64,000 nt of DNA from positions 6,179 to 70,178 of the IMG/VR virus record IMGVR_UViG_3300030060_004544; one strand, written 5' to 3'. Shown here one piece after another: positions 71 to 53,501 of the stretch. This DNA is from a virus. The notes below the pieces were generated by a model that was given only the letters and a program-made list of their open reading frames with translations, was not told the origin of the DNA and did not search any database. A program made the position numbers and the translations under genes. Each line of letters starts with the position of its first letter. Positions within the stretch are counted from its first letter, which is position 1.

Positions 71-1636
71 ATGGAATATAATCAACCTAGTTTGATCGTA
101 AAAGATCTTACATTTAGCAATGATGCTAAGTGGAGAATTATTGAAGGTGTAGAAAAACTGAACAACGCAGTTAAGTCTACACTTGGAGCTTCAGGAAAAT
201 GTGTCATCTATGAAGATGCATTAGGTAAACCGGTGATAACAAAAGACGGTGTAACAGTAGCTGAATCTGTTGTCTTATTTGACCCGGTTGAAAATATAGG
301 TGCAACACTTATAAAAGAAGCGGCGAATAACACTGTGAAAGAAGCAGGTGACGGTACCACTACGGCTACTGTCCTTGCTCATTCGCTTTTAAAAATAGCA
401 AGTGCTAGAGAATCTGATAACGTTAGAGAAATAAAGCAAGGTATTAAAACAGCTACAGACAAAGTAATGACATACTTAGATAAGGTAAGCATCGATGTAA
501 ATGATGACTTGCTTGAAAATGTAGCTACAATATCTACTAATAATGACGAAGAGCTTGGCAAGTTTATATCATCAGCATATAAACAAGTAGGTAAAGATGG
601 TGTAGTGTTAATGGAAGAGTCACCAACAGGAGAAACATATGTTGATGTTGTTGATGGTATACAAATAAAATCTCCGTTAAAATCACCACATCTTGTTACA
701 GATAAAGATAGAGGTGTTGCAGAGCTAGATAATCCTCTAGTATTAATCACATCGTCACCAATACCTAATATACGTAAAATACAACCTATATTAGAACACT
801 GTATAAAGAAAAACAGATCTTTACTTATAGTTGGTGAACTAGAGCAACAGCCTAAAGCAGCATTATTAACAAACAAGGTTAAAGGTAATATAAAGGTTAA
901 CTTTATTGACTTACCTGGCTTTGGTCCTACTAAACAGGATAGCACTGAAGATTTAGCCATAGTAACAGGTGCTAAAGTTATTAATGAAGAGCTTGGTGAT
1001 GACTTTGATCTTATTGATGTAGATTGTCTTGGTGAAGCAGTGAAAACTGTTACAGATGACAAACATACGGTGTTTACTGTAAATAAATCAGGTAAAACCC
1101 TTAAAGATCGTATAAAACAAGTAAAAGATATAATAGGTAAGGAAACTAAAAATCCTTACTTAAAAAAGAAACAACAAGAAAGATTAGCAATACTTAATGG
1201 ATCAGTGGGGATTGTGTTTGTAGGAGCTGATAGTAAGGTAGAACTAAAAGAAAAGAAAGACAGGATAGAAGATGCAATATATGCTACAAAAGCAGCTTTA
1301 CAAGAAGGCATCGTTCCTGGAGGTGGTATAGCGTTACTTAATGCTAGTAACAATATAACGCCTAAAAATGTTGGAGAAGAATTATTATTACAGGCAATAC
1401 AAACACCTTTCAATACAATACTAGATAACGCAGGTATTGAAAAACCTACTAAACTAGTCAAAGGTCAAGGTATAAACGTAGTAACCGGTAAAAAGGTTAA
1501 TATGATTAAGTCTGGAATTATCGATCCGGTTTTGGTTACAAAATCGGCGCTGAAAAACGCTGTATCAGTAGTTAGTACTATTATATCAGCTGATTGTGTA
1601 ATATCTAATATGAGGATAAATGAAAGCAATAAATAG
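71..1636 (+). CDS. groEL: Phage-encoded group I chaperonin (Cpn60)
   Basis: [35 protein letters not shown] and GIIDP motifs; 521 aa; no C-terminal GGM tail. Confidence 0.97.
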
Positions 1637-4673: not shown

Positions 4674-5021
4674 ATGCCTAAAATTAGTAAAATACAAGTA
4701 GACACTACCATCAATGATGGAGACAAGGTTTTAGGTTCTGATTCGTCAGGAGCAACTAGAAATTATACTTTAAAGCAAATAGCTGATTTCGTAGTTGAAT
4801 CAGGAGGATCACATAAACATCATCAAAACACAGACAGTGATACATGGACAATAGATCACGGTTTAGAGTTAGATGGTTATATACCAAGTGTCACCGTTAG
4901 ATTAGATGACGGAACACATGCTGATGTAGGAGCTTTTGGACAAGTAAAATACATCACTAAAAATCAATTAAAAATTTTCTTTGCAGCTAGTTATTCTGGC
5001 TTCGCATACATTAATAAATAA
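4674..5021 (+). CDS. Putative virion/tail-fibre accessory protein
   Basis: TWTIDHGL...PSVTV module typical of phage fibre adaptors. Confidence 0.55.
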   Translation: MPKISKIQVDTTINDGDKVLGSDSSGATRNYTLKQIADFVVESGGSHKHHQNTDSDTWTIDHGLELDGYIPSVTVRLDDGTHADVGAFGQVKYITKNQLKIFFAASYSGFAYINK

Positions 5022-5037
5022 AAACAAATAAAAAACT

Positions 5038-6918
5038 ATGGCAATACCTATTTTAAATCATTTAAACGTTAAAGGTAATATAAACCTTAACGATTATAAG
5101 CTTAACGATTTTGTCGTAGATCATTCTACCGAGGGCGATGCCGGTAATACTACAGGGAAGCTGATCTACGATTCAGGAACGTTAAAGTATTACGATGGCT
5201 CCGCGTGGCAGTCATTAGGAACTTCTTCAGGAACAATGAGTTCTTTTCAGTTAGAAGATGGAGATGGAGATGAAGTTACAATCTCAGACGCAAAAGAAGT
5301 TAAATTTATAGACGGTGCAGGTTTAAATATAAACTGGACAGACACATCTCATGGTACAGACGGTGATCCTTATGATCTTACATTTGAAATTGCATTATCT
5401 ACTAGTGACTTTACTAAACCCGCACCAGCTGATGGTGATGTGCTTTTAACATTAGACAGTGATGGATCAACCACTCAATTTACAGGTGTAGCAGAGCTTG
5501 CAACTTTATTTGCAGGAACTGGCTTAACAGCAACAAGCGGTGTTATCGCGGTTGACACGCTTAACCAAGATACTACTGGTACAGCTGCTAACGCAACAAA
5601 TGCTGCTCATGTAAGAGTTACTGATAATGAAAATACAGATGAAAATAATTTAATCACATTTGTTGAAGACGCAACAAGCTCTACTGGTGATGTAGGTCTT
5701 GAAATGGATGGTGATTTCCATTATAATCCTAGCTCTGGTACTGTAACCGCTACAATATTTAAAGGTAATATAGATGCTGTTGATGGTGATTTTGATGGAA
5801 CGTTAGAAGCAGATGCTTTAACAATTGGAGGCGTTGCAATAGCAGAATTTATACAAGATACTGTTGGAGCAATGTTTACTAGTAATACAGAAACAAGAAT
5901 TTCAGCAACCTATGAAGATGATGATGGAACTATAGATCTTGTTGTAGATGATATGACAGCTAACGATGATGTAGATGTTAATATTGCTAACTTAACAGCT
6001 AGACTTCCTCAAATTACAGAAAGTGTTACAATTGGTGATGCGACAGATGTTACTGTAACAACATCAGGTAACTTAGTTGTAACTGGTGATTTAACTGTAT
6101 CAGGTGATACTGTTTCAGCTAACGTAGCAACTTTAGATGTTGAAGATAAAAATATAACATTAAACAAATCAGGTGGCGATTCTAGCTCAACAGCAGACGG
6201 CGCAGGTATTACTATTCAAGATGCGGTAGATGCTTCAAATGACGCTACGTTATTATGGAACGCATCAAATGATAAATTTGTATTTTCACATTTAATAGAA
6301 GCACCAGGAACATCTATATTTTCTGCTCTTGATGTATCCGGTAATGTTGATATTGACGGAACAACTAATCTTGACGCTGTTGATATTGATGGTAATGTAC
6401 AATTAGACGGAACATTAAGCGTTGGTGTTGATGACACGGGTTATGATGTTAAATTCTTTGGCGCTACAGCTAGTAAGTACATGTTATGGGATGCTAGTGC
6501 GGATACTTTAATATTAACTGGAGAATTAGATGCCGGTTCATTAGATATTTCTGGTAACGCAGATATTGATGGTACATTAGAAGCTGATGCGATTACTGTC
6601 GATGGAACAGCACTTGATACGGTTATTGATAACAGAATTAAGGTTGTACAAAAAACTGCAACTATAGACGTTAGTTCGTTAACAAGTAACGTAAATAAAT
6701 GTAGCATTACTCACAGTATGAACTCAACTAACTTAATTATTAAGTTGTACGATAGCGTTACATTTTTAGATGTCTTCGCAGATGTTGATAGACTTAGTGT
6801 AAATCAAATACAAGTTGTTTTCTCTCATCAACCTAGTAACGACATTATAGTTGTTATTCAGGAAATAATTGGAGACAATATTGCCGCGGGATCAAATATT
6901 ACATACCCTGGCTCTTAA
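5038..6918 (+). CDS. Putative tail fibre / virion fibre protein, strongly acidic
   Basis: 626 aa, D/T/G-rich; GNLVVTGDLTVSG and VEDKNITLN fibre motifs; internal repeats DGTLEADA x2 and LD(V/I)SGNxDIDGT x2. Confidence 0.75.
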   Translation: MAIPILNHLNVKGNINLNDYKLNDFVVDHSTEGDAGNTTGKLIYDSGTLKYYDGSAWQSLGTSSGTMSSFQLEDGDGDEVTISDAKEVKFIDGAGLNINWTDTSHGTDGDPYDLTFEIALSTSDFTKPAPADGDVLLTLDSDGSTTQFTGVAELATLFAGTGLTATSGVIAVDTLNQDTTGTAANATNAAHVRVTDNENTDENNLITFVEDATSSTGDVGLEMDGDFHYNPSSGTVTATIFKGNIDAVDGDFDGTLEADALTIGGVAIAEFIQDTVGAMFTSNTETRISATYEDDDGTIDLVVDDMTANDDVDVNIANLTARLPQITESVTIGDATDVTVTTSGNLVVTGDLTVSGDTVSANVATLDVEDKNITLNKSGGDSSSTADGAGITIQDAVDASNDATLLWNASNDKFVFSHLIEAPGTSIFSALDVSGNVDIDGTTNLDAVDIDGNVQLDGTLSVGVDDTGYDVKFFGATASKYMLWDASADTLILTGELDAGSLDISGNADIDGTLEADAITVDGTALDTVIDNRIKVVQKTATIDVSSLTSNVNKCSITHSMNSTNLIIKLYDSVTFLDVFADVDRLSVNQIQVVFSHQPSNDIIVVIQEIIGDNIAAGSNITYPGS

Positions 6919-7393: not shown

Positions 7394-10288
7394 ATGAAGT
7401 GGTTATGGAATAAAATAGATTTCTGGAATACCGCGACTAGCAGAAGCACAACAGTTAGTACTTCTAAATCGACGGCTACAAGCAAATCCACAACTACTAC
7501 TTTTAACACAAGTAAGAGTACTACAACGGTATATAATACAAGTACTAATACTACAACTACTTTCAATACTAGTAAAAGTACAAGTACTGTTTTTAATACT
7601 AGTACTACAACTACTTTTGAAACTTCTAGGGAAACTACTGTATCAACCAGTAGATCAACTAGCACAGAGTTTAATACTAGCACATCTACAACTACAACCT
7701 TTGAAACTAGTAAGTCAACCACGACTACTTTCAATACTAGCACAACTACAACATTTGAAACATCTAGGCAGACAACAGTCTCTACTAGCAGATCAACTAC
7801 AACTACATTTAACACAAGTAAGTCTACAACCACTACTTTTGAAACTAGCAAGAGTACTACTACAACCTTTAATACAAGTACAACAACAACTTTTAATACT
7901 AGCAGGGAAACTACAATATCAACAAGTAGAACTACTCAAACTGCATATAACACTAGTAAAAGTACAACTACTATTTACGAAACTAGCAAAAGTACTACTA
8001 CTACATTTAACACTAGTACTACTACCACTTTTGAAACTAGTAGGGATACTACTGTGTCAACTAGTAGAAGTACAACAACAACTTTCAATACTACAAAAAG
8101 TACTACCACTACTTTTAATACAACAAAAAGTACTAGTACAGTATTCAATACAAGTACTACAACGACTTTTAATACAAGTAGAGAAACTACTATAAGTACA
8201 TCAAGATCAACTCAGACTACGTTTGCTACTAGCAAGTCTACATCTACTGTTTTCAATACTAGCACAACCACTACGTTTAATACAAGTAGAGAAACAACTA
8301 TAAGTACGTCTAGAAACACTACTACAACGTTCAACACTAGTAAATCTACATCTACAGTATTTAATACTAGCACGACTACTACTTTTGAAACAAGCAAACA
8401 AACAACTGTTTCAACTAGTAGAAGTACTACTACCACATTTAATACTAGCAAGAACACAACTACTACTTACAACACGACAAAGTCTACTAGTACGGTTTTT
8501 AACACAAGTACCACTACCACTTTCAACACTAGTAGAGAGACTACTATATCTACATCTAGATCTACAACGACTACGTTTAATACTAGTAAAAACACTACAA
8601 CGACTTTCAATACAACAAAGTCAACTAGCACTGTGTTTAATACTAGTACTGTTACAACGTTTAACACAACTAGAGAAACTACAGTATCAACTAGTAGAAA
8701 CACTACAACAACCTTTAATACAAGTAAAAATACGACAACTACGTTTAATACTACTAAGTCTACAAACACTGTATTTAACACGTCTACTACAACAACATAC
8801 AATACCACTAGAGAAACAACTATTTCAACTAGTAGAAACACAACAACAGTATACAATACTACTAAGTCTACGACCACAACGTTTAATACTACTAAAACAA
8901 CTAATACTGTATTTAACACAACAACTTTAACTACGTTTAGTACAACTACAACATATAATACAAGTAAATCAACTGCAACTAGCAGAAACACTACTGTATC
9001 TACTACTAGAACTACTGAAACCGCGTACAATACTACTAGAACTACACAAACTACTTTTAATACTTCAACAAGTACATCAACAAGTAGAGAAACTACTATA
9101 AGCACTAGTAGAAGCACCAACACTGTTTTTAACACAACTACACTGACAACATTTGGCACGCAAACAACTTTTAGCACTTCTAAGTCAACTCTTACTGTTT
9201 TTAATACTACTACTTTAACCACGTTTAATACAACAACGACTTTCAATACCACTAGGTCTACGAACACTGTATTTAACACCACTACTTTAACTACGTTTAA
9301 CACGGTAACAACTTTTAATACTACTAGAGATACTACTACGATATTTAGCACAACAACGTTAACCACGTTTGATACCACAACAACATTTTCTACTAGTACA
9401 CTAACAGAAACAATTTACAACACTAGTACTACTACTACCACTACAACAACGTTTAACACCAGTAGAAACACATCGGAAAGTAGAACTACAAGTACTACAA
9501 CAACATTTTCTACAACGACAGTTTTTAACACAACTAGAACTACTAACGTTAATTATGTTGTATGGGATGTGCAACAAGGAGATAGTAGTACTCTTGGTGC
9601 AGGTTATATATACAAACAAAACATATCACCTACTGGTGGAAGTAACATTGCTGCAAGTGAGGTTAGATTTAATAACCAACTTCCTGAAAATGCTAGTAAA
9701 GTATATATACATGAAGAAGATGATACAGGTTATAACCTTTATAACGCGTTTTCAAATGTAATGAATTTTGTTAACGCTGGTGGTGGAAATTATGCTAGAT
9801 TTCTTATAGCTGCTGACGTACTTCAAAAAGCTATTTCTTTTAAAGTTACCGGTGGATCATATAATTCTACTTTAGATTATTTTGAATTTGATCTAGCTGA
9901 AAACATATTTGTTGACACAGTTAAGTGTCCAGGTTATAACACATTTGTCTTAGAAGCAGGTGATACAAAATTAGAAGTATGGATGTGGAGAAGTGATGGT
10001 GCTGGTGGATACAGTACAACTACTACAACTACGTTTAGCACAAGTACGTTAACAACATTTAACACTGTAACAGTATATAACACTAGTAAAAGTACACAAA
10101 CAACGTTTAGTACATCTAAATCTACATCAACAAATAGAAATACTTCAGAAAGTAGAAGTACAACTACAACTTTTAATACTCTAAGATCAACCATAACACA
10201 ATACAATGCGTTTACTTTATACAATACATTTAGATCAACATTTACATCAGGCGGCGGTGGAGGCGGCTGTAGTAGAGGTTGTATATAA
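7394..10288 (+). CDS. Thr/Ser-rich repeat protein A (putative beta-zipper filament chain with an inserted globular domain)
   Basis: 964 aa: Trp-rich N-terminus, about 700 aa of TSKSTTTTFN/TSTTTTFN/TSRETTVS units, about 155-aa non-repetitive domain (9548-10012), second Thr-rich tract, ends GGGGGGCSRGCI. Confidence 0.85.
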   Translation: MKWLWNKIDFWNTATSRSTTVSTSKSTATSKSTTTTFNTSKSTTTVYNTSTNTTTTFNTSKSTSTVFNTSTTTTFETSRETTVSTSRSTSTEFNTSTSTTTTFETSKSTTTTFNTSTTTTFETSRQTTVSTSRSTTTTFNTSKSTTTTFETSKSTTTTFNTSTTTTFNTSRETTISTSRTTQTAYNTSKSTTTIYETSKSTTTTFNTSTTTTFETSRDTTVSTSRSTTTTFNTTKSTTTTFNTTKSTSTVFNTSTTTTFNTSRETTISTSRSTQTTFATSKSTSTVFNTSTTTTFNTSRETTISTSRNTTTTFNTSKSTSTVFNTSTTTTFETSKQTTVSTSRSTTTTFNTSKNTTTTYNTTKSTSTVFNTSTTTTFNTSRETTISTSRSTTTTFNTSKNTTTTFNTTKSTSTVFNTSTVTTFNTTRETTVSTSRNTTTTFNTSKNTTTTFNTTKSTNTVFNTSTTTTYNTTRETTISTSRNTTTVYNTTKSTTTTFNTTKTTNTVFNTTTLTTFSTTTTYNTSKSTATSRNTTVSTTRTTETAYNTTRTTQTTFNTSTSTSTSRETTISTSRSTNTVFNTTTLTTFGTQTTFSTSKSTLTVFNTTTLTTFNTTTTFNTTRSTNTVFNTTTLTTFNTVTTFNTTRDTTTIFSTTTLTTFDTTTTFSTSTLTETIYNTSTTTTTTTTFNTSRNTSESRTTSTTTTFSTTTVFNTTRTTNVNYVVWDVQQGDSSTLGAGYIYKQNISPTGGSNIAASEVRFNNQLPENASKVYIHEEDDTGYNLYNAFSNVMNFVNAGGGNYARFLIAADVLQKAISFKVTGGSYNSTLDYFEFDLAENIFVDTVKCPGYNTFVLEAGDTKLEVWMWRSDGAGGYSTTTTTTFSTSTLTTFNTVTVYNTSKSTQTTFSTSKSTSTNRNTSESRSTTTTFNTLRSTITQYNAFTLYNTFRSTFTSGGGGGGCSRGCI
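7436..9529 (+). repeat. Coding tandem repeat array of 80 even-length peptide units (46-aa and 36-aa super-repeats)
   Basis: 10-mer blocks occur in order 4,3,3,3,3,2,2,3,3,3,3 separated by 8+8 units; synonymous codons are diversified. Confidence 0.9.
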
Positions 10289-10299
10289 AATTAAATAAT

Positions 10300-11331
10300 A
10301 TGAATATACCTTATAGAACATCGGATACGCAACAAAATTATCATGCAGCTGATTTAACTTTTCGTGAAAATGGAGACATAGTCTGGACTAACCCTGTTAC
10401 TAATGAGATATGGGAAGTTATGATGGAGTGGGAAATACCAATCATGCAAAAAGCGGCAGAGGTGTGTGTTGACGCTGGTGCAGATGTTTTAGAGTGTGGT
10501 TTTGGCATGGGTATATTGTCAGACGCTATACAAGCTAGAAACCCAGGTACTCACACAATATGTGAAACGCATCCTCAAATAATACCTAAATTAAAAGCTT
10601 GGGCTGCAGATAAACCTAATGTAATTATCGTTGAAGACAAATGGTTGAGTTTGTTAAACGAGCGTAAAGGTTATGATGCAATACTAATGGACACATATGC
10701 AGACCCTGATTTACACCCTCATTTTAGATATTTTGTAAAACAAAAAGCAAAAGACGGAGCTAAAATAACATGGTGGAATTATAGTGGTGGAACAACAGAT
10801 GAGTATATGAAGTTTCACTGGGACGATGTAGTATTTCATAATGTAGCTATATCTCCACCTGAAAATCAGTATTATAATAGAAACGTGTATCCTGTTCCTG
10901 TTAAAGTTTACAATAGAGAAACAGGTTTTGGTGTATTATCAAGCTCTAGTTTTAATATAAGCGAAACAGAAAGCAAAGATCTACATGAAGTTAAATCATT
11001 TTTAACTTGTGATGTTTCAAATGGAACAAAAAGCGTTAAAAGTGTTGAAGGTGTTGAGAGATTAGCGATGTATTGCGAAGGTTTGTACACTTTAAATGAA
11101 AATTTAGTTATAGCTGGTTCACATCCTATATACGTAAAAAGAAATAATCAATGGACTACAGTTAAAGTAAATGAACTTGTAATTGGTGATAAACTATATG
11201 GTAAAAATGGAGAGGTTGAGCTAACAAGTAAAACTTTTGATTCGTCTGAAACAACAAGACAAATATATAAAGTAGTGCTTAATAACTATTTTGTTAACGA
11301 TATATTAGTGAAAGGAGGGTCTGATGCCTAA
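10300..11331 (+). CDS. RMT2/GAMT-like class I SAM methyltransferase fused to a degenerate Hint domain
   Basis: VMMEWEIPIM, VLECGFGMGI, HTICETHP, YDAILMDTY; C-terminal GSHPIYV...W..V..L.IGDKL...NYFVNDILV Hint pattern; ATG 10300 preferred over TTG 10279. Confidence 0.8.
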   Translation: MNIPYRTSDTQQNYHAADLTFRENGDIVWTNPVTNEIWEVMMEWEIPIMQKAAEVCVDAGADVLECGFGMGILSDAIQARNPGTHTICETHPQIIPKLKAWAADKPNVIIVEDKWLSLLNERKGYDAILMDTYADPDLHPHFRYFVKQKAKDGAKITWWNYSGGTTDEYMKFHWDDVVFHNVAISPPENQYYNRNVYPVPVKVYNRETGFGVLSSSSFNISETESKDLHEVKSFLTCDVSNGTKSVKSVEGVERLAMYCEGLYTLNENLVIAGSHPIYVKRNNQWTTVKVNELVIGDKLYGKNGEVELTSKTFDSSETTRQIYKVVLNNYFVNDILVKGGSDA

Positions 11332-13768
11332 TACTACTACTGTTTTCGGAACATCGAGGTTAACAACAATATCTGATTTTACTAATACTACTGTTTCTAC
11401 CAGTAGAAATACTACAACTACTTACACTACTAGTACTGTATACAATACGACAACTACTTTTAATACTACTACTAGTACAACCACTACGTATAATACTACT
11501 AAATCCACATCAACATCAAGAAATACTAGTTGGGCTACTAGTAGAAGTACTAGCACGGTTGTAGGTGCAGATATGGATGATGATGTAATGACTTTTTACA
11601 ACACTAGTACAAATACTTTAACGTCTAAAAGTACAAACACCACAACAACATACACTACAAGCACTACGTATCCTACAAGTAGATCAACAACAACAACTAC
11701 AAACTACAACACAAGTACTATTACGACAGAATCTAGTAACACTACAAGAGCTACATCAACTAGCAGAAATACTAGTTATGAAACTAGTAAAACTACAACT
11801 ACTACTTACAACACTACAAAATCTACATCAACAAGTAGAAACACCACTATTAGTACAAACAACAATACAACTACTACTTATAACACTACAAGAACTACAT
11901 CAACAAGTAGAAATACAACCGTATCTACTAATAGAAATACAACTACTACTTTCAACACAAGTACTATTACACAGACAAGTAGAAACACTTCATACAGCAC
12001 AAATAGAGATACAACAACGACATTTAATACTAGTACAACAACTACATTTAATACTACAACAACTTACAATACTAGTAGAAATACAACTACAACCTTTTCA
12101 ACAAGTACTAACACCGTAACTACGTTTAACACGCAGACGTTGACAACTTTTAACACTACAACTACTTTTAATACTAGTACTAATACGCAAACTAGTAGGA
12201 ACACAACTGTGTCTACAAATAAAAATACTACTACAACTTTTAACACAACAAAATCTACTACAACAACGTTTAATACGTCTAAATCAACAACAACGACGTT
12301 TAATACATCTACTACAACGACTTTTAACACGTCTAGAACAACAACTATTAGTACGAATAAAAATACCACTACAACGTTTAACACAACGAGAAGTACTCAA
12401 ACAACTTTTGCTACAAGTAAAAGTACTAGTACTGTGTTCAATACGTCTACAGTAACAACATTCAATACAAGTAGAACAACAACTGTTAGTACAAGTAGAA
12501 ATACAACAACAACCTTTAATACTACTAGGTCAACTCAAACTACATTTGCTACTAGTAAAAGTACCACAACAGTATTTAATACGAGTACAACTACTACTTT
12601 TAATACATCTAGATCTACCACGGTAAGTACAAGTAGAAACACCACGACTACTTTTAATACTACTAGAACTACGCAAACTACTTTTGCTACTAGTAAATCA
12701 ACTACTACAGTGTTTAACACCAGTACGACTACCACGTTTAACACATCAAGATCTACAACTATTAGCACAAGTAGAAATACTACAACTGTATACGCTACTA
12801 GTAAATCAACAACTACTACGTTTAATACGTCTACAACGACAACTTTCAACACTAGTAGATCTACTACAGTATCTACAAGTAGAAATACAACTACGACTTT
12901 TAATACTAGTAAAAATACAACCACAACATTTAACACTAGTACAACAACTACATTTAACACTAGTAGATCAACGACTGTTTCTACCAGTAGAAATACTACG
13001 ACTACGTTTAATACAACTAAAAGTACTACTACGACGTTTAATACTTCTAAAAGTACTACAACCGTATTTAACACATCAACTACGACAACATTTAATACTA
13101 GTAGGTCTACTACTATAAGCACATCTAGATCTACGACTACAATATTTAATACAAGTAAGTCTACTACTACTACGTTTCAAACAAGTACTAATACCACTAC
13201 GACTTTTAATACAAGTACGACTACCACTTTTGAAACTAGTAGATCAACAACTATAAGTACGTCAAGAAGTACAACGACCACGTTTAATACAACTAAATCT
13301 ACTACGACCACATTCAATACTAGTAAGAGTACAACAACGGTGTTTAATACTTCAACAACAACTACTTTTAATACTAGTAGAAGTACTACTGTTAGTACTA
13401 GTAGAAGTACAACAACTACTTTTAACACAACAAAAGCAACAACTACAAACTACAACACAAGTACTGACACGACTACTACTTTTAACACTAGTACGACTAC
13501 AACTTTTAATACCACTAGAGTTACAACAGTTAGTACGTCTAAAAATACTACGACTACATTTAACACGACTAAAACTACACAAACAACTTTTAGTACAAGT
13601 AAGAGTACCACCACAACTTTTAACACAACAAAGAGTACTACTACAATATTTAACACTACTACAGTGTTTAATACTAGTACAACTACTACGTTTGAAACTA
13701 ATACTAACTGGTATGATGGTGATCCTGGTAATTATGGTCAATTAGGTGATGTATCCTTTGATAGGTAG
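11324..13768 (+). CDS. Thr/Ser-rich repeat protein B (mirror partner of protein A)
   Basis: 814 aa of the same unit alphabet; short acidic loop GADMDDDVM; ends NWYDGDPGNYGQLGDVSFDR. Confidence 0.85.
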   Translation: MPNTTTVFGTSRLTTISDFTNTTVSTSRNTTTTYTTSTVYNTTTTFNTTTSTTTTYNTTKSTSTSRNTSWATSRSTSTVVGADMDDDVMTFYNTSTNTLTSKSTNTTTTYTTSTTYPTSRSTTTTTNYNTSTITTESSNTTRATSTSRNTSYETSKTTTTTYNTTKSTSTSRNTTISTNNNTTTTYNTTRTTSTSRNTTVSTNRNTTTTFNTSTITQTSRNTSYSTNRDTTTTFNTSTTTTFNTTTTYNTSRNTTTTFSTSTNTVTTFNTQTLTTFNTTTTFNTSTNTQTSRNTTVSTNKNTTTTFNTTKSTTTTFNTSKSTTTTFNTSTTTTFNTSRTTTISTNKNTTTTFNTTRSTQTTFATSKSTSTVFNTSTVTTFNTSRTTTVSTSRNTTTTFNTTRSTQTTFATSKSTTTVFNTSTTTTFNTSRSTTVSTSRNTTTTFNTTRTTQTTFATSKSTTTVFNTSTTTTFNTSRSTTISTSRNTTTVYATSKSTTTTFNTSTTTTFNTSRSTTVSTSRNTTTTFNTSKNTTTTFNTSTTTTFNTSRSTTVSTSRNTTTTFNTTKSTTTTFNTSKSTTTVFNTSTTTTFNTSRSTTISTSRSTTTIFNTSKSTTTTFQTSTNTTTTFNTSTTTTFETSRSTTISTSRSTTTTFNTTKSTTTTFNTSKSTTTVFNTSTTTTFNTSRSTTVSTSRSTTTTFNTTKATTTNYNTSTDTTTTFNTSTTTTFNTTRVTTVSTSKNTTTTFNTTKTTQTTFSTSKSTTTTFNTTKSTTTIFNTTTVFNTSTTTTFETNTNWYDGDPGNYGQLGDVSFDR
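11603..13696 (+). repeat. Coding tandem repeat array of 80 peptide units, reverse order of 7436-9529
   Basis: 10-mer blocks in order 3,3,3,3,2,2,3,3,3,3,4; 2094 nt, the same length as the array in gene A. Confidence 0.9.
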
Positions 13769-13821: not shown

Positions 13822-14715
13822 ATGGAAATGTTTAATAGACGTGAGTTGGACAAAAGAATTGGCCATCTCAAAAAAAATAAAAAACTTGAAAGTTTAGAAC
13901 AAGTAGAAGGATACTTTATAAGAAAGTGTACTGAAGCTGGTATTGATTTTAGCTATGATGTTATGGCTGATGAAATGCCTCATTTTAAAACTTTAGCATA
14001 TACTGAGTTTGCTACTAGTTTTTACATGCAACCTCTAAACACAAAACTTAGATACGCTCAAATGATTGACGCATACGATGATGATTGTGATGTTGTTGAT
14101 TACTCATCTTATTTAATTGAAAATGTTATGAGTAAAAATGCTAATAAGTATCAAGATAGAGACTCTAAGTTTGATCAATATGAGCCGAAAGATAATATTG
14201 TTATATTACCTGGCTCAAATAAAGTAAAATCCAATATTTGCTTAAACAGATTAAAGTTTTTAGCAAATAAACATGGTAATAACATGTATTTTAAGCCACA
14301 TCCTATAACAACACATCAAATTATAGGTGAGTTAAAAGACTTTTTTGGCGACCAAAATATATTACCAAGGGATATAGATATGTATTATTATTTACAAAAA
14401 GCAAATAACGTATACACTACTCATATTAGTGAAAGTATGATATACGCGGCTGTTTTAGGTAAAAAAATTGAACCTATTGACGTTTGGAATAACATACAAA
14501 TGGGATCTTTTTATTGCATTAACAACCATTTGCTTGATAATCAACATGATATTAAAAATTATATCAATAAGTGTTTTTCAAGTCCAAAGTCTGGTATTAT
14601 AAACCCAGCTGTAGACAAAAATTGGAAAGAAAAAATAGATAAATACTTACAATACATACTTAAAAAACGAGAAATGTACAAAGACTGGTTTATAGCTGAA
14701 CCAAAAAAGAAGTAA
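13822..14715 (+). CDS. KpsS/KpsC (capsule synthesis)-like GT-B glycosyltransferase, probable CMP-sugar donor
   Basis: YFKPHP motif followed by LQKANNVYTTHISESMIYAAVLGKKI, matching the K.HP ... L...D.V.T..S...EA...GK.V pattern. Confidence 0.6.
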   Translation: MEMFNRRELDKRIGHLKKNKKLESLEQVEGYFIRKCTEAGIDFSYDVMADEMPHFKTLAYTEFATSFYMQPLNTKLRYAQMIDAYDDDCDVVDYSSYLIENVMSKNANKYQDRDSKFDQYEPKDNIVILPGSNKVKSNICLNRLKFLANKHGNNMYFKPHPITTHQIIGELKDFFGDQNILPRDIDMYYYLQKANNVYTTHISESMIYAAVLGKKIEPIDVWNNIQMGSFYCINNHLLDNQHDIKNYINKCFSSPKSGIINPAVDKNWKEKIDKYLQYILKKREMYKDWFIAEPKKK

Positions 14716-35096: not shown

Positions 35097-38000
35097 ATGT
35101 GGGAATTTAACGGTAAGAAGTTCACAAACGAGCAATTACAGTTAGCCGCAGACAAAGCAAACTTATCATTTGATGAGTTTGTAAGTAAATTGCGAGAAAA
35201 AGGTTTAACCGAAGTAAAGGTTGATAGAATAGGTGTAGATACACAAGAAGAAACTGGTTTCTTTGAAGAAATATTTACTAGTGGTAAAAGGTTTGTATCA
35301 GGTGGTGCAGGTGCTTTAGCAAGAATATCTCAAATACCAGCTCAAATAAACAGAGCTAAGTTTGTTGCTCGTATGGAACGTTTGCCTGATGATAATAAAT
35401 TAAAAGAATTTTACAATAACCTAGAACCTGAAAAACAAGATGAGTTTTTACAAAAATACGAAGGTATCATGGCTGGACGTATGCCTGGTAATATTCCAAT
35501 TGCGAAACTTGGCGAAAGTGGTTTAGAAGCTTCTGAAAAATTAAAAGATTATCAACAAGAAATAAATTCAAAACTACCACAATACAATAGAGCTTTATCA
35601 GAAGCTTATATAGCGGCTGCTAAAGGTGATATATCTGCTGTACCTGAGGTAATTGCAAGAACAATAACTAGTTCTGCAGAAGGTTTACCGTCATTGATAC
35701 AAGCAATGATTCCCTACATTGGTATACCTTCAGTAATACTAGGTAGCTCAGCAGAGGCTTCAACAGAGGCTATAGAAGAAGGTAAAAAAGTTGATCTTGA
35801 TAATTTAGCTTATTCAAGTTTTGTTGGTGTTGCAGAAGGTGCTTTAGAAACAGTAACTAGAGGTATTGGTAAAAGTATATTTGCAAACTTAAAAGGACAA
35901 GGTGCTGCTGTTGTAGAAAGAAGATTAAGAGATATATTTTTAAGAATAGGTAAAGACTATGGTAAAGAAGGTTTATCTGAAGGTACGTCAGCTGCATTAA
36001 GTAAAGCAGCTAAAGCTGTTTATATAGGTGACGCTGAAGGTTTTGATGAAATATTTAATTCAGTATTTGATGATTATGAAGTGCTAGATAACATACTTAT
36101 TGGTGGTGCTTTAGGTGGTAAAACAAGAGGTGGTGCTGAGTTGTTTATAGCTAAAAACAATAGAAGCATTAATAAAACATTAGACAATACAAATGTAAAT
36201 GATGTTAACTCTGCTTTTCAAAATGACAATGTAAATCAAGATGTAATAGATATAACTAGAAATAAAAATGCTAGTGCTAGATTAGATGCTGAGCTACAAC
36301 AAAAATTAGATAACGGAGAAATAACAGTAGAACAAAGAGATAAGGTAAAAAAGAATTTTAGTGATACACAATCAGCTGTAACACTAGCTGATAACCTAAA
36401 CATCGGTAAAGACTTAATACAAGAAACTGTAACGTTATTAAAAGAAAGAAATACTTTAGCTAGTAAAATAGAATTAGCTGGTGCTAATAAAGCTATAGTC
36501 GATGCTGAAATAAATAGATTAAAAGAAGTTGATGCTAGACTAGCAAAAATAAGTTCTGATAATCAATTAAATCTTACAACAGAAAAAGTTACTGACATAG
36601 TTAGTGGACTTGATAAAATAAATATAGAAATAGCAGAAAATCAAGATGCTGCCGATAAAATTGCTAAAGACAAAAACCTAGAAAAGAAAGCATCGTCACA
36701 ACAAGGATTTATACTTCAAGACCTTGAATCAGGTGAACAAACAATCGTTATAAATAAAGAGATCGCTGCAGAAGATGCAGCAGTAAATGTAGCTGCCCAT
36801 GAGTTATTACACGGTGTTTTATTTAATACTATTGGTAAAAACCCAGAAGCAGCTGAAGTTTTATCAGAAGCACTTAAAGTTGAAATAAATAAAATAGATA
36901 CTGATATATTAAAAGACAGTGATTTTAAAACTAGATTAGATGCTTATAAAAACGATCCAACAGCGATACAAGCCGAAGAAACTTTAACATTGTTTGCTGA
37001 TGCTGTAGCTAACGGTGAGATAAAATATAACGAAACTGTATTTACTAAAATAGGTGATATAGTTAGAAGAATACTACAACAAGCGGGTTTATCTGACATA
37101 AAGTTTAACACTTCAAGAGATGTATTTAATTTTATAAAAGATTATAATAAAAGTATTGTAAAAGGTCAGTTAACACAGGCACAAACAAAACTTACACAAG
37201 AAGCTGCTACAGGTGATTTAATATCTGACACACAAACAGATCAAGAAACTCAAATAAGAGAGTCAAAAGGCGCGTTAGATGTTATCAATAATATAATACC
37301 TAGTAATATAAAAACTAAAGAGCAGTTTCAAAACGACCCTAAAGTATTTGGTGATGCTTTTGCTGCTACAGAGCCAAACGGTGTTATAAGTAACTATGTT
37401 AAGTCTAGATCAACTAGTGTTGAGCAAGCAAATGCTACTATAAGAAATATACAAAGTAGATTAATGAACTTTGATCCAGCGTTTAACAAAACGTTTGGTG
37501 AGTTTGTTTTTGCTAATACTAATTTTGCTAAGCTAGATGCTAATAAAGAACTAGCTATAGAGTCAGCTAGAAAAGCTAGAGAAACTAGAATAGATCAGTC
37601 TACTAAACAAATAGCTGATACAGAAACAGAAACGCCAACAACACAAACAAGAGTATCACGTAAACTTAATGTATTAAAGCTAGATAAAGTAAATGAAGCT
37701 GATCTAGTTAAAGCTGTAAAAGTAAAAGAAGGTGATACATTTAAAGAAGTTATAAATAATAATACTGGTGAAATAGGTAGTAAAATATTTAACATACCAG
37801 CTAACAAAATAACAGACGGCACAAAGAACTTAACATACGCTAAGAAAATAACAGATGGTATACCTGAAAACTCTGAAGCTGGTAACATACAAGAGTTTTT
37901 TAGAGTTGGTCAGAATGCTGATAAATTTATAAAACTATTACCTGAAGAAAATGTTAGTGAAACAGATGCTGATATTAACCAGTTAGGTGAAAACATAGAT

Positions 38001-41000
38001 GTTGATAGAAATGTAAGTGGTTTATCTATAGGTATGAAAGGTAAAGTACTTAATTATTTTTATAATAAAACAAACAGAAGATCAAAAGGTTTAACATCAC
38101 AACCAACTATATGGGAACTAAAACCTGAGTTTAGAAACCCAACTGTAGAAACAATAAACAAATTAAAAGATGATTTAGGTATTACACCACCAGGCGAACT
38201 AAATAACTACAATAGAGATATTGGTCAGTTATTAAAAGGTGTAGCTAAAACATACGCGCAACAAGCTAGTTTATCATCAGCACAAAGAGTTTTAGAAGGT
38301 CAAACTAAAACAGCTAAAGATCCTGTAGCAGTTAAAAAGCAAACAGCTAATATAACAGCTGCACAAAAAACTAGAGTTGTATACAGTAAAAGAAATGGTA
38401 AACATGACAACTATATTACAAAATCTTGGAAAGATATTTCAACAGATAATAAACAAGATTGGTATGTAGTTAAGAAAGATCCGGAACGATATGCTAACGA
38501 CATAGTTAAAATAGCTAAGATATTTGAGAAAAAATTTGGATATGGTTTTTTAAGTAAAGCCATGTTAACAAATAAAGATGGTTTAGGTATAGGTGCAAGA
38601 AAGAAAAAAGATGCTGATGGAAATATTACTAACGAGGCGATTATAAAAGAAAATCAAAAAATATTTGATCAAATAAGCGCTATAATTACAAGAGAATTAC
38701 CAAACATAAGTAAGCAGTCTGAAGGCAAAAAACACGTTAAACAAAAGATAACAGCACAGTTTGCAAAAGATGCTACTAAAAAAGAAATGGAAGCAGCAAA
38801 TAAACAAAATATGAGGCTGTTTAAAGATATGTGGTCAACTATATATGATATGGTTCAAAGCGATAAATCATTAACACCTGCATTATTACATTTTCTTAAA
38901 AACGCTGTTAGCGAAGGTAGTCATATACAAAGGCTTGGCGCTGAGTATATTGGTGGTTACGTTGATAAATCTCAAATATCACATTTAGAACACGCATTAC
39001 AAAATGCTAACACAGCTAAAATGTTAATGGATGCCGCATTAAATCAATCAAAAAAAGACTTTAATAAAACATTTGAAGCTACCGTTAAAAATTATAAGAT
39101 TATAGGATTACCAAAGGCGCTTAATAACATATTAGATAAAACAGATTTTAAAAATAAAATGTCACTTGATCAAAGCTGGGATGTTTTTAATAATAACTGG
39201 TGGGAAAGATATTTTAATGAAGTAGTAGCTGCTGTAGATGGCGGTATAAATCCTGATTTAATTATAAAAAACGATGGCACAAGATTATCAGACGAAATTA
39301 ATGTTGACACGTATGGTAGATCAACAACACCTAACGTTTCAAAAGCTAAATTAAAAGCTAAAGTTGATTATCCTAAAGTTTTAAAATTCAGTAAATCAAC
39401 ACCTAATAAAGATAAAATAAGAAACGATTTAAATGATTTTGATCAAGCAAACCGTAACGCTAAAGATATTAACGCACCTAAAAAAGGTATAAGTATTTTT
39501 GATTTTGATGATACATTAGCCACAAGTAAAAGTAAAGTGCTCGTAACTATAGATGGTAAAACTACAAAAATAACACCAGCAGAATTTGCTAAACAACATA
39601 GTAAACTAGAAGAACAGGGTGCTACGTTTGATTTTAGTGAATTTAATAAGGTTGTTGGTGGTAAACCCGGACCATTAGCCGCTAAGCTTAAAAAAGCAAT
39701 AGATAAGTTTGGTAATAAAGACGTGTTTGTTTTAACAGCTAGACCACAAGCGTCAGCTAAAGCTATATATGAGTTTTTAAAAGGTATAGGTTTAGAAGTG
39801 CCTATAAAAAATATTACAGGTTTAGAAAACGGTACGCCTAAAGCTAAAGCTAAGTGGGTTGTTAGTAAAGCAGCAAAAGGTTACAATGATTTTTATTTTA
39901 CTGATGATGTATACAAAAACGTTAAAGCCGTTCAAGATGCTTTAGAAATATACGATGTTAAGTCTAAAACAAGAGTTGCATATGCTAATAGGCTTACTAA
40001 GCTTGATAGAGATTTTAACGACATACTTGAAGCTAAAACAGGTATAGGAGCAGAAAAAGTGTATAGCAAAGCAAAAGCAAAAGCAGTTGGATCAAGCAAA
40101 GGTAGATTTACATTTTTTATACCGCCATCAGCTGAAGATTTTGTAGGATTACTTTACAATACATTAGCTAAAGGTAAACTTGGTGATAATCAAATGGCTT
40201 GGTATAAAAAGAATTTATTAGATCCGTATGCTACAGCTATGGGTAATATATCAAGAGAGCGTACATCCTTGATGAACGATTACAAAGCTTTGAAAAATCA
40301 ACTAGAAGTAGTACCTAAAAACTTACAAAAGAAAATACCAGGTGAACCTTACACAAACGAACAAGCTGTAAGAGTTTATATATGGAATAAGCAAGGTATG
40401 ACAATACCTGGATTAAGTAAAGCTGATTTAAAACTATTAACAGATCATGTTGAAAGTAAACCTATTTACAAAGCTTTTGGTGATCAGTTAATAGCTATAA
40501 ATAAAGACGATGGTTATTCTGCTCCAAAAAGCAGTTGGTTAGCAGGTACTGTCACTACTGATTTAATGGATAACTTAGGTACTACAAAAAGAGCTAAACA
40601 TTTAGCAGAGTGGCAAAGAAATGTAAACACTATATTTTCTGAAAAGAATTTAAATAAAATGGAAGCCGCGTTTGGCTTAGCGCATAGACAAGCTTTGGAA
40701 GGTATACTTGAACGTATGAGAACTGGTAGAAACAGAAGTTTTCAAGGTGATTCATTAACTGGTCAAGTAACAGACTGGTTAACTAATAGTATTGGTACTA
40801 TTATGTTCTTTAACACAAGGTCTGCATTGCTACAAACAATATCTTCTGTTAACTTTATTAATTTTAAAGACAACAATATATTTGCAGCTGGTAAAGCATT
40901 TGCTAATCAAAAACAATATTGGAAAGACTTTATGTCATTAATGAACTCTGAGTTTTTAGTTGATAGACGTAGAGGTTTACAGATAAATGTTAACGAAGCA

Positions 41001-46724: not shown

Positions 46725-46965
46725 AATAAAAGGCGGAGGGACTAAAAAAGTCTGTTTACCATACAATAAATATAAAAGTATGAGTAAAGCCGAAAAGCAA
46801 AAAGTTATACGTGCTAAACGTAAAGCTGCTGCTTCAGGTAAATATAAAAGATCTAGTAAATCTAATGTCAAAGGCGCTAGAAAAAAAGGCGCTACATTAA
46901 GAGACTGGTTTCAAAAAGAAAAATGGGTTAACATAGCCAACGGTAAACCGTGTGGAGCTAAGTAG
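46711..46965 (+). CDS. Small very basic protein
   Basis: VCLP..K...MSKAEK...RAKRKA and LRDWFQKEKWVNI..GKPCG; last + strand gene. Confidence 0.7.
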   Translation: MPKSKIKGGGTKKVCLPYNKYKSMSKAEKQKVIRAKRKAAASGKYKRSSKSNVKGARKKGATLRDWFQKEKWVNIANGKPCGAK

Positions 46966-50765: not shown

Positions 50766-50952
50766 TTATTATCTTTTGTAATTTTTCTTTATCACCAAAC
50801 AATACTAAACAATCGTAATCTTTAGTTTCAATATCCTCTATCTTTTCTACGTTATCAATAACCCATTTAGCGCAAAACGCATTATTTAAATTAGCCATTA
50901 ATCTTGAGTTTCTAATATTGTAAGGAGCTTCTACTATTGCTACTCTATTCAT
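50752..50952 (-). CDS. Hypothetical protein
   Basis: 66-aa ORF overlapping both neighbours. Confidence 0.6.
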   Translation of the reverse strand: MNRVAIVEAPYNIRNSRLMANLNNAFCAKWVIDNVEKIEDIETKDYDCLVLFGDKEKLQKIINESR

Positions 50953-53496: not shown

Positions 53497-53501
53497 ATTA
53501 T

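What the first reader, a model, noticed from the sequence alone, without database searches (positions are those of the whole stretch)
7394..13768. Two proteins that are protein-level 'reverse complements': a programmed antiparallel beta-zipper of 698 residues
Seen: both Thr-rich proteins parse into even-length units starting with T. These are 10-mers (TSKSTTTTFN), aromatic 8F/6F units (TSTTTTFN, TTTTFN) and basic-type 8R/6K units (TSRETTVS, TSKSTA). Read N->C, A (7436-9529) is 8R,6K, then 10-mer blocks 4,3,3,3,3,2,2,3,3,3,3 each separated by 8F,8R, then 8F,6F,6K,8R,10,10,6K,8R,10,8F,6F,10,8F,6F,10,8F,6F,10,8F,6F,10,12,6K,6K,6F,6F. Read C->N, B (13696-11603) gives the same lengths in the same order, with every F-type unit swapped for a K/R-type unit and vice versa. 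Both arrays have 80 units and 2094 nt. A few basic-type units carry T instead of K/R at position 3. Inference: A and B pair antiparallel as a two-chain beta-ribbon in which K/R at position 3 meets F/Y at the penultimate position (cation-pi), and the aperiodic unit order fixes a unique register. At 0.33-0.35 nm per residue this is up to about 230-245 nm if fully extended. This differs from canonical parallel homotrimeric phage fibres, and I do not recognise a described system like it.
Basis: partly seen in the sequence, partly recalled or inferred. Interest (0 to 1): 0.97.

Follow-up and report, generated by a model that had tools for sequence, protein, structure and literature searches.

The report
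Mirror-coded two-gene phage fibre duplex
Two neighbouring threonine-rich proteins of an uncultured marine phage match residue by residue when one is read backwards (Lys/Arg opposite Phe/Tyr, Thr opposite Thr), and related phages change both genes in step, which points to a very long two-chain zipper-like fibre of a design I found in no paper or database searched.

Summary
With A (7394-10288) read forwards and B (11324-13768) read backwards in the register i+j=807, 108 Lys/Arg residues face Phe/Tyr/Trp. The next best register gives 70, neighbouring registers 0-3, and the best parallel register 38. Unit-order shuffles reach at most 52. There is no DNA-level complementarity.

The decisive evidence is co-evolution. 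In 24 distinct A/B pairs from uncultured phage contigs (A 354-1328 aa), the cognate partner is the best or tied-best match in 24 of 24 rows and columns. The lengths of A and B correlate at r=0.94. Indels of 10, 14 and 36 residues are mirrored between the two genes. Class changes coincide at paired positions (6 observed, 0.21 expected).

My best reading (about 0.6) is that A and B zip antiparallel, residue by residue, into a long beta ladder that forms a virion fibre. The end formed by the A N-terminus and B C-terminus is conserved. The other end is variable and carries a globular domain.

Half of the relatives' A chains end in a Peptidase_S74-like chaperone domain, so a trimer of duplexes (A3B3) is plausible. 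Structure, stoichiometry and length are not shown.

This scan noted the same design earlier on other phage genomes (unchecked AI notes).

The parts
7394..7435 (+). A, N-terminal anchor (aa 1-14). The motif is conserved in all relatives and I read it as the virion-proximal end.
   Evidence: The motif W-x-x-I-D-F-W-N-T picked up 35 IMG/VR stretches. In register it faces the aromatic-rich C-terminus of B.
7436..9529 (+). A, main Thr-rich array (aa 15-712, 698 aa) built of even-length units of 6, 8, 10 and 12 residues.
   Evidence: All K/R/F/Y lie on odd positions. The array pairs with B 94-791 at i+j=807.
9539..10009 (+). A, globular insert near the distal end (aa 716-872).
   Evidence: It is 70-76% identical in L001 and L002 and is replaced by other domains in other lineages. 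No Pfam or PHROG match. The AF2 model is unusable, pLDDT 33.
10010..10249 (+). A, distal array (aa 873-952), which pairs with B aa 1-78.
   Evidence: The register lenA-9 gives 10 pairs against 5 for the next register in W, and 8-12 against 4-7 in four relatives.
10250..10288 (+). A, C-terminal Gly6-Cys-x-Arg-Gly-Cys-Ile tail and stop codon. It overhangs the N-terminus of B.
   Evidence: S74-less relatives end in similar Gly-rich tails.
10300..11331 (+). M, a methyltransferase of the guanidinoacetate N-methyltransferase type with a C-terminal Hint-like domain, encoded between A and B.
   Evidence: PDB guanidinoacetate N-methyltransferase 1p1b, E 3.8e-11, over aa 37-174. There is also a weak match to an intein-bearing TFIIB chain, E 0.086. 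A gene of 185-358 aa lies between A and B in 8 of 8 loci whose ORFs I listed. The L016 and L018 versions align to the methyltransferase part.
11324..11557 (+). B, N-terminal (distal) array, aa 1-78.
11558..11602 (+). B, short acidic spacer (aa 79-93) opposite A's globular insert.
11603..13696 (+). B, main Thr-rich array (aa 94-791, 698 aa), the mirror complement of A's array.
13697..13768 (+). B, C-terminal anchor (aa 792-814) and stop codon. It is conserved in relatives and faces A's N-terminus.
13822..14715 (+). A 297-aa protein that always follows B. I treat it as a candidate KpsC/KpsS-like transferase (a lead only).
   Evidence: phrog_26179, function unknown. 369 relatives at E<=1e-5, none with a Pfam family. 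One Atlas cluster at rank 21, score 0.95, has PF05159 on 13% of its members. A Thr-rich ORF lies upstream in 14 of 14 loci that hold upstream sequence.

Best explanation
A and B are the two chains of one elongated virion fibre. They lie antiparallel and in register along their whole repeat regions, about 700 residue pairs plus about 80 beyond a globular insert.

Every second residue forms one face. That face is a Thr ladder punctuated by cross-chain Lys/Arg-to-Phe/Tyr pairs. The other face is Ser/Thr/Asn.

The non-periodic order of unit lengths, and of 'aromatic-only' and 'basic-only' short units, acts as a code that allows only one register and only the cognate partner.

The conserved end (A N-terminus plus B C-terminus) attaches to the particle. 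The variable end (A C-terminal region plus B N-terminus, with a globular domain) is distal and probably binds the host.

The pairing is inferred from co-evolution. The beta-ladder geometry, the stoichiometry (AB, or three AB duplexes as A3B3) and the length are inferred, not shown.

The methyltransferase between the genes and the transferase-like gene after B probably modify the fibre. That is an inference from conserved gene order only.
For: (1) There is a unique antiparallel register with 108 complementary pairs, in one gapless segment. Of the 349 odd-face pairs, 199 are Thr-Thr and 107 are Lys/Arg-aromatic.

(2) The match is not produced by nucleic-acid pairing. Watson-Crick complementarity in the mirrored register is 38%, against 35.9 +/- 1.8% over 140 other registers. 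There are no long inverted repeats.

(3) In 24 distinct complete pairs from IMG/VR contigs, the cognate partner gives the best or tied-best count in 24 of 24 rows and 24 of 24 columns. Examples are L038 at 86 against at most 43, and L037 at 77 against at most 36. The lengths of A and B correlate at r=0.943.

(4) Indels are mirrored. W against L002 shows +14 at about A683 and +14 at B117, which mirrors A690. W against L029 shows -36 at A273 and -36 at B496 (mirror 311), plus +14/+14. W against L030 and L036 shows -10/-10 at mirrored places.

(5) W against L001 shows 12 class changes in A and 12 in B. Six fall on the same pair, where 0.21 are expected (hypergeometric 5e-9), and all six keep complementarity.

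(6) In L037 the globular domain sits in B (about aa 80-270) instead of A. That is the same distal place on the other chain.

(7) Fibre context. The genes lie between a tail-fibre-like gene and the terminase. Twelve of 24 A chains end in a domain that matches the C-termini of virion structural and tail-fibre PHROGs. Relatives of that domain match Peptidase_S74 in 22 of 30 members.

(8) The strict two-residue alternation with no phase slip, the near absence of Gly and Pro, and 13-15% hydrophobic residues fit an extended strand better than a folded core.
Against: There is no physical evidence of binding, of beta structure or of presence in virions. The phage is uncultured, and cultured relatives (Flavobacterium elemo phages) lack the module.

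Asn at the end of almost every unit could mark turns rather than a continuous strand.

In distant lineages the proximal half is only weakly complementary, and the register shifts by 1-10 residues at a few points.

In W, 21 K/R/F/Y/W positions face a neutral residue, and 3 pairings are same-type K/R/F/Y/W clashes, in the terminal anchors.

A free two-stranded ribbon about 250 nm long with two polar faces has no solved precedent that I know of (recalled). Some higher-order packing would probably be needed.
Confidence: 0.6

Rival explanations
1. The pairing is the same, but the fibre is a trimer of duplexes (A3B3). Three A chains are held parallel by the C-terminal chaperone domain. Three antiparallel B chains fill the gaps, giving a six-stranded antiparallel needle or tube like a greatly lengthened, two-gene version of the T4 gp37 needle. 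This is a variant of the best explanation, not its opposite.
For: Twelve of 24 A chains end in the S74-like motif. The family matches Peptidase_S74 in 22 of 30 members. The T5 pb1 chaperone of this kind is trimeric (abstract of PMC4690869, seen in the listing). The gp37 needle is a six-stranded antiparallel beta needle made by three chains (passage in PMC9659904).
Against: W's own A has no such domain. The S74 matches of L018 and L038 themselves are below Pfam's cut-off, 12.3 and 15.5 bits against 22. The fold search of the domain model found nothing. No second, symmetry-related register stands out in the counts.
Confidence: 0.3
2. A and B each fold on their own into a repeat rod, either a beta meander or a solenoid with one strand per unit. 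The two rods then pack side by side in opposite directions. The mirror would then reflect matching of unit widths and charges, not a continuous strand-to-strand ladder. The fibre would be about 40 nm long, not about 250 nm.
For: The units are discrete (6, 8, 10 or 12 residues). They start with Thr and mostly end in Asn, a turn-friendly residue. Within blocks of 10-mers, consecutive units could also pair K with F inside one chain (my own reasoning from the sequence).
Against: The runs of aromatic-only units in A and basic-only units in B have their complement only in the other chain. The match is gapless at residue level over about 700 positions in 7 of the first 10 pairs. A constant solenoid perimeter is hard to reconcile with unit lengths and super-repeat lengths (36, 46, 56) that vary along the chain. 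The hydrophobic content is too low for a core.
Confidence: 0.15
3. The proteins are mucin-like scaffolds for phage-encoded glycosylation and methylation and do not pair. The repeat grammar would be a recognition pattern for the modifying enzymes.
For: Ser plus Thr make up 64-66% of the arrays. A methyltransferase and a transferase-like gene are always adjacent. KdsA-like and cytidylyltransferase genes lie elsewhere in the window.
Against: This reading does not explain the mirror complementarity, the mirrored indels or the cognate specificity. There is no Pro, and the alternation is strict. Modification and pairing are not mutually exclusive.
Confidence: 0.05
4. The mirror is a by-product of a mutational mechanism, such as an inverted duplication or gene conversion between the genes, and has no function.
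For: AAA (Lys) and TTT (Phe) are reverse complements, so an inverted copy read in frame would swap K and F (my own reasoning).
Against: Both genes are on the same strand. An inverted copy would turn Thr codons into Ser, Cys, Gly or Arg codons. Nucleotide complementarity in register is at background level. Arg, not Lys, is the commoner partner of Phe: 55 F-R pairs against 42 F-K. The pattern is maintained through independent changes in 24 lineages.
Confidence: 0.02

Closest known systems
Needle domain of the phage T4 long-tail-fibre tip, gp37 (Bartual et al. 2010, as described in a passage of PMC9659904; iron sites in a passage of PMC6957217)
   Same: Both are thin all-beta fibre segments in which strands running out to the tip and back lie antiparallel side by side. 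In both, the receptor-binding part sits at the far end.
   Different: In gp37 one chain makes both the outgoing and the returning path, three chains give six strands, the needle is short, and it is stabilised by His-bound iron. Here the two directions are two gene products. The paired length is about 780 residues. The arrays hold no His. The register is set by a Lys/Arg-aromatic pattern. No sequence similarity was found.
Trimeric phage fibres and spikes with a C-terminal intramolecular chaperone (Peptidase_S74: K1F endosialidase, T5 pb1; abstracts of PMC4690869 and PMC8326128 in the listing)
   Same: A has a conserved N-terminal anchor and a variable distal end. In 12 of 24 relatives A has a C-terminal domain of this kind after a Gly-rich linker.
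   Different: Those fibres are parallel homotrimers of one gene product, often with a triple beta-helix of constant repeat. Here a second, antiparallel chain co-evolves with the first, and unit lengths vary along the chain. W's own A lacks the domain.
Spectrin alpha/beta antiparallel heterodimer, and obligate heterodimeric coiled coils such as keratins (recalled, not checked here)
   Same: Two different long repeat proteins lie side by side, antiparallel in spectrin, with matched repeat numbers to make one filament.
   Different: Those are alpha-helical with repeats of about 106 or 7 residues. This fibre is Thr-rich with a two-residue alternation, and its complementarity is readable residue by residue.
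Tandem beta-zipper of bacterial fibronectin-binding proteins, and single-layer beta-sheet rods such as SasG/Aap and OspA (recalled, not checked here)
   Same: A polar, extended chain is stabilised by antiparallel strand-to-strand hydrogen bonding without a hydrophobic core.
   Different: Those involve short segments docking on folded modules, or one chain folding on itself. None is a two-gene, hundreds-of-residues mirror code.

Membership tests
Peptidase_S74 intramolecular-chaperone fibres (PF13884) | The C-terminal domain matches PF13884 at or above the gathering score (22 bits). | tested here: not met
   The window's A has no Pfam match and ends in a Gly-rich tail. Relatives L018 and L038 score 12.3 and 15.5 bits. 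Of a 30-member alignment of that domain, 22 match at E<=0.01, best 7.7e-7. Of 10 longer family members, 1 scores 21.7 bits.
Peptidase_S74 intramolecular-chaperone fibres (PF13884) | A Ser/Lys auto-cleavage motif stands at the start of the domain, after a Gly-rich linker (motif recalled). | tested here: inconclusive
   In alignment A5, Ser31 and Asp32 are nearly invariant and Lys36 is invariant. Cleavage itself is not testable here, and the window's A lacks the domain.
Peptidase_S74 intramolecular-chaperone fibres (PF13884) | Parallel homotrimer of one gene product. | not testable with these tools
   The complex job gave no verdict. The monomer model of the domain (pLDDT 63.7) found no fold match.
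T4 gp37-type needle | One chain runs out and back, and His-x-His iron sites line the needle. | tested here: not met
   The two directions are separate genes. There is no His in either 698-residue array. No Pfam match.
Triple beta-helix or beta-solenoid repeat fibres, and TxT ice-binding solenoids | Constant coil or repeat length, with Gly, Cys or hydrophobic residues at fixed inward positions. | tested here: not met
   Unit lengths of 6, 8, 10 and 12 and super-repeats of 36, 46 and 56 residues vary along the chain. Each array holds one Gly or Pro, no Cys, and 13-15% hydrophobic residues.
Mucin-like O-glycosylated disordered regions | Ser/Thr/Pro-rich composition, no fixed residue periodicity, and dense glycosylation. 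| tested here: inconclusive
   The arrays are Ser/Thr-rich (64-66%) but have 0-1 Pro and a strict two-residue alternation. Glycosylation is not testable. The neighbouring transferase-like gene is only a lead.
Guanidino-group N-methyltransferases (GAMT/RMT2 type), for the gene between A and B | Sequence similarity to solved GAMT over the SAM-binding domain. | tested here: met
   PDB 1p1b, 1khh, 1xcj and 3orh match at E 4e-11 to 2e-10 over aa 37-174. Pfam gives only a weak Methyltransf_25 match. The substrate is unknown.

The most novel reading that the evidence does not exclude
A natural 'protein duplex'. Two different polypeptides pair antiparallel over 500-1100 residues through a readable residue code: Thr with Thr, Lys/Arg with Phe/Tyr/Trp, and unit lengths as spacers. 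The code fixes both register and partner much as base pairing does for nucleic acids. It builds ultra-thin fibres hundreds of nanometres long on marine phages and evolves by mirrored indels in two genes. A dedicated guanidino-type methyltransferase and a sugar transferase may tune the pairs. If true, it is a new principle of fibre construction and a ready-made template for programmable beta-sheet nanomaterials.
Probability: 0.5. Interest if true: 0.95.

Novelty: categorically new. Interest (0 to 1): 0.88.

Why it matters
Known phage fibres are parallel homotrimers whose register comes from identical chains. Here the sequences alone, across 24 lineages, argue for a heteromeric, antiparallel, sequence-coded pairing over many hundreds of residues.

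If confirmed, it would be a new way to build a long thin protein filament. It would also give a natural rule set for partner- and register-specific beta-strand pairing, a long-standing design problem. It could explain how some abundant marine phages extend their reach for hosts.

The module is common. The gene that always follows B has 369 relatives at E<=1e-5 in marine metagenomes. The A anchor motif occurs on 35 IMG/VR stretches. It was absent from 185,579 prokaryote genomes in two pattern scans.

The functional class, a virion fibre, is probably ordinary. The construction principle is what is new. My searches (passages) found no description of it.

Tried and rejected
Complex prediction of A505-716 with B91-302 (4-row alignments A2 and A3) returned 'no answer', ipSAE 0.00 in both runs, and the controls were not run. 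This is neither support nor evidence against binding.

AF2 of A's globular insert gave pLDDT 33.4 and is unusable. AF2 of the S74-like domain of L038 gave pLDDT 63.7. A Foldseek search of PDB with that model gave no match at E<=0.001. PDB profile searches with alignments A4 and A5 found nothing meaningful.

Pfam and PHROGs give nothing for A or B.

tblastn against cultured phages found nothing with A, with B's tail or with the upstream 133-aa protein. The region 9550-11600 has no DNA match there. The elemo phage region upstream of its terminase holds no such gene pair.

The search for homologous proteins with A's globular region found nothing at E<=0.001.

I tested and rejected a nucleic-acid hairpin. 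I also tested self-pairing of A with A or B with B as the conserved feature and rejected it. It reaches 72-78 in the periodic W group but only 20-36 in the aperiodic lineages, where A-B reaches 39-86.

Literature searches for threonine-rich phage fibres, antiparallel heterodimeric fibres and the motif TTTTFN returned nothing relevant. The tail-fibre atlas preprint contains none of 'antiparallel', 'heteromer' or 'threonine'.

Supplementary files were not needed and were not opened.

Rows dropped before the 24-pair count:
- 13 of the 28 loci L064-L091 (12 where A or B runs off the locus end, plus L067, whose complete A has no B within the locus)
- L051 and L056, near-duplicates of L001 and L037
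- L081, identical to L071

L065 and L072 are near-identical to each other and tie.
Full report
WHAT IS THERE

The window is 64 kb of a 70,178-base IMG/VR virus record rated complete. It is a phage with a GroEL gene, a large terminase and a portal. Its nearest cultured relatives are Flavobacterium 'elemo', Cellulophaga, Tenacibaculum and Maribacter phages, at 66-69% DNA identity over the terminase and portal.

A tail-fibre-like 626-aa gene and a 133-aa gene come first. Four genes then follow on the + strand:
- A, 7394-10288, 964 aa
- M, 10300-11331
- B, 11324-13768, 814 aa
- a 297-aa gene, 13822-14715

The terminase starts at 15996. A and B have no Pfam or PHROG match.

CHECK OF THE OBSERVATION

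I then tested the claim without any parsing. For every register i+j=c, I counted positions where Lys/Arg in one chain faces Phe/Tyr/Trp in the other.
- c=807 gives 108 pairs.
- c=805, 806, 808 and 809 give 0, 3, 1 and 1.
- The next best registers, 761 and 853, give 70 and 69 and are one 46-residue super-repeat away.
- The best parallel register gives 38.

A gapped local alignment driven only by this pairing rule returns a single gapless segment, A17-715. It scores 512, against 27 in the parallel orientation.

Shuffling the order of B's units gives a mean of 36.4 and a maximum of 52 in 2000 trials. In the 204-residue aperiodic zone, 25 pairs are observed against a mean of 4.9, and 0 of 5000 shuffles reach 25. 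Shuffling only the order of super-repeats reaches 108 in 4 of 2000 trials. The aperiodic part therefore carries the register information.

Within the arrays, all K/R/F/Y/W residues lie on odd positions and none on even positions: 115 in A and 113 in B. Thr holds 220 of 349 odd positions in each chain. In register, the odd face is 199 Thr-Thr pairs and 107 cation-aromatic pairs out of 349. The even face is Ser, Thr and Asn.

Beyond A's 157-residue globular insert, the mirror resumes. A's last array faces B's first 78 residues in the register lenA-9. That register gives 10 pairs against 5 for the next one in W, and 8-12 against 4-7 in four relatives. This confirms the companion note e1-6208001.

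IT IS A PROTEIN-LEVEL PROPERTY

In the mirrored register, 38.2% of bases are Watson-Crick complementary. The background over 140 other registers is 35.9 +/- 1.8%, with a maximum of 41.4% elsewhere. The longest inverted repeats are 16-27 nt. An inverted duplication would not keep Thr codons. Arg is a commoner partner of Phe than Lys is, with 55 F-R pairs against 42 F-K.

CO-EVOLUTION

Four scans supplied related loci:
- A's globular insert as query
- a degenerate pattern for an 8F-8R unit pair, 19 stretches
- the gene after B, 25 IMG/VR loci and 18 metagenome loci
- A's N-terminal anchor motif, 35 stretches

I dropped loci where a gene runs off the end, and duplicates. That left 24 distinct complete pairs, with A of 354-1328 aa and B of 410-1163 aa.

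In every pair one antiparallel register stands out. Examples are L038 at 86 against 32, L037 at 77 against 43, and L018 at 39 against 15. In the 24x24 cross table, the cognate partner is the best or tied-best in 24 of 24 rows and 24 of 24 columns. The ties are among near-identical relatives. The lengths of A and B correlate at r=0.943.

Indels are mirrored:
- L002 has +14 residues near A683 and +14 at B117, whose mirror position is A690.
- L029 lacks 36 residues at A273 and 36 at B496 (mirror A311). It also has the +14/+14 pair.
- L030 and L036 lack 10 residues at A239 and at B557 (mirror 250). L030 lacks 10 more at A359 and B449, and L036 at A451 and B354.

W and L001 have the same lengths. 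Between them, 12 positions change class in A and 12 in B. Six fall on the same pair, where 0.21 are expected (hypergeometric 5e-9). All six keep complementarity: three gains, two losses and one swap. Three further single changes complete a previously half-empty pair.

Self-pairing (A with A, or B with B) is high only where the array is periodic. It is low (20-36) in the aperiodic lineages, where A-B stays at 39-86.

Results against a perfect picture:
- In W, 21 K/R/F/Y/W positions face a neutral residue.
- In L002 the inserted basic unit has its Arg two positions off.
- In L016 and L018 the register shifts at two points each, by 10 and 1 residues in L016 and by 1 and 1 in L018.
- In the longest and most distant pairs, the proximal half is only weakly complementary, and the register moves by 1-10 residues.

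POLARITY AND CONTEXT

The end formed by A's N-terminus and B's C-terminus is conserved in all lineages. The other end is variable:
- a 157-aa insert in the W group
- other inserts in L030 and L036
- a small Cys-bracketed domain in L016, L018 and L038
- in L037, a large insert carried by B instead of A, at the equivalent distal place

This is the usual logic of a receptor-binding fibre, with a conserved attachment end and a variable tip.

Twelve of 24 A chains end, after a Gly-rich linker, in a roughly 75-residue domain.
- It matches the C-termini of PHROGs annotated as virion structural, DNA-ejection and tail-fibre proteins, E 2e-11 to 0.04.
- L018 and L038 score 12.3 and 15.5 bits on Peptidase_S74, against a cut-off of 22.
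- A profile of the domain finds 2489 proteins, nearly always at their C-terminal end.
- 22 of 30 aligned members match Peptidase_S74 at E<=0.01.
- Only 1 of 10 longer members comes close to the cut-off.

In T5 pb1 such a domain is a trimeric intramolecular chaperone (abstract of PMC4690869, listing). The window's own A lacks the domain and ends in Gly6-CSRGCI.

NEIGHBOURING GENES

A gene lies between A and B in 8 of 8 loci whose ORFs I listed. The gap sizes fit such a gene in 14 of the 15 further complete pairs. L066 is the exception.

In the window, the N-terminal domain of this gene matches guanidinoacetate N-methyltransferase structures at E 4e-11. Its C-terminal domain matches an intein-bearing chain only weakly, E 0.086. 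The short L016 and L018 versions align to the methyltransferase part at E 5e-5 and 2e-3.

The 297-aa gene after B has 369 relatives at E<=1e-5, all without a Pfam family. Its only functional lead is an Atlas cluster at score 0.95 that has Capsule_synth (PF05159) on 13% of its members. Elsewhere the window encodes a KdsA-like DAHP_synth_1 protein, a CTP_transf_3 cytidylyltransferase, a JmjC protein, a cupin and another methyltransferase.

That these enzymes modify the fibre is an inference from gene order only.

HOW IT MOST LIKELY WORKS

Shown: there is a one-to-one antiparallel correspondence between the residues of A and B, and selection maintains it.

Inferred: the two chains form an antiparallel beta ladder. 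Directly opposite residues in such a ladder point to the same face. Odd positions would therefore form a Thr ladder with Lys/Arg-aromatic cross-pairs, and even positions a Ser/Thr/Asn face.

Three features fit a continuous strand. All unit lengths are even, which keeps the alternation in phase for 698 residues. Gly and Pro are almost absent. Hydrophobic content is 13-15%.

The variable unit and super-repeat lengths argue against a solenoid of constant perimeter. The aromatic-only and basic-only runs argue against pairing within one chain.

At 0.33-0.35 nm per residue, the main array would span 230-245 nm, and the distal array about 26 nm more. A tilted or coiled arrangement would be shorter. 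The oligomeric state is open. The S74-like domain in half of the lineages makes three duplexes around one axis plausible, comparable in topology to the six-stranded antiparallel needle of T4 gp37 (passage in PMC9659904). The complex prediction gave no verdict.

COMPARISON AND NOVELTY

The closest solved thing is the gp37 needle. It differs in being one chain that runs out and back, a trimer, short and iron-stabilised. The arrays here contain no His.

S74-chaperoned fibres share the anchor, tip and chaperone logic but are parallel homotrimers. Spectrin alpha/beta and tandem beta-zippers are analogies that I recall and did not check.

I found no description of a two-gene mirror-coded fibre in the searches, nor in the passages searched in the fibre atlas preprint.

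Two pattern scans of 185,579 prokaryote genomes found nothing. Cultured phages in the collection lack the module.

EARLIER NOTES OF THIS SCAN

The scan has reported the same design on other phage genomes. The notes cover two-gene duplexes in T4-like and jumbo phages, single-chain fold-back versions, and the module 'fibre, methyltransferase, fibre, transferase'. These are AI notes and not independent evidence. They gave me the pointer to PMC9659904. I did not test whether those loci are homologous to this one.

VERDICT

The construction principle appears undescribed in print.

Noticed in passing
window 10300-11331; L016, L018, L037, L038 between A and B: A methyltransferase of the guanidinoacetate N-methyltransferase type is always encoded between the two fibre genes. 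It carries an extra C-terminal Hint-like domain (gaps of about 1.0-1.1 kb) in lineages whose A chain lacks the S74-like end. It is methyltransferase-only (gaps of about 0.55 kb) where A has that end. L016 and L066 are exceptions.
   Followed up: partly
L037 7563-9944 (B) and 4674-6497 (A): In this lineage the large globular insert sits in B, near its N-terminus, instead of in A near its C-terminus. That is the same distal place of the paired fibre, on the other chain.
   Followed up: partly
L069, L075, L080, L082, L083, L090: In several distant lineages the best register changes by exactly 1 about midway along the arrays (for example 699 to 700, and 637 to 638). This would flip which face the residues point to. 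The proximal halves also show weaker complementarity. I have no explanation.
   Followed up: no
L066 (A 354 aa, B 410 aa): This is a short version of the pair with only 9 nt between the genes and no methyltransferase. Its register offset is 135 from B's end instead of 6-18, and both proteins have different C-terminal ends.
   Followed up: no
window 46958-51782 (- strand): A gene cluster holds a KdsA-like DAHP_synth_1 protein (48411-49163), a methyltransferase (49160-49789), a CTP_transf_3 cytidylyltransferase (49786-50424), a cupin (50421-50765) and a JmjC protein (50949-51782). Ribonucleotide reductase genes follow (51775-54470). It could supply an activated ulosonic acid for fibre glycosylation.
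   Followed up: partly
window 71-1636: A phage-encoded GroEL-type chaperonin (Cpn60_TCP1, E 3e-49; phrog_5725). It is shared with the elemo phages, which also carry GroES.
   Followed up: no
window 10250-10285 and the A C-termini of L029, L030, L036, L037: A chains without the S74-like end finish in a conserved Gly-run followed by Cys-x-Arg-Gly-Cys-Ile/Gln. This could be a disulfide or metal cap at the fibre tip.
   Followed up: no
window 35097-41993: A 2298-aa ORF in the structural module. I did not examine it.
   Followed up: no
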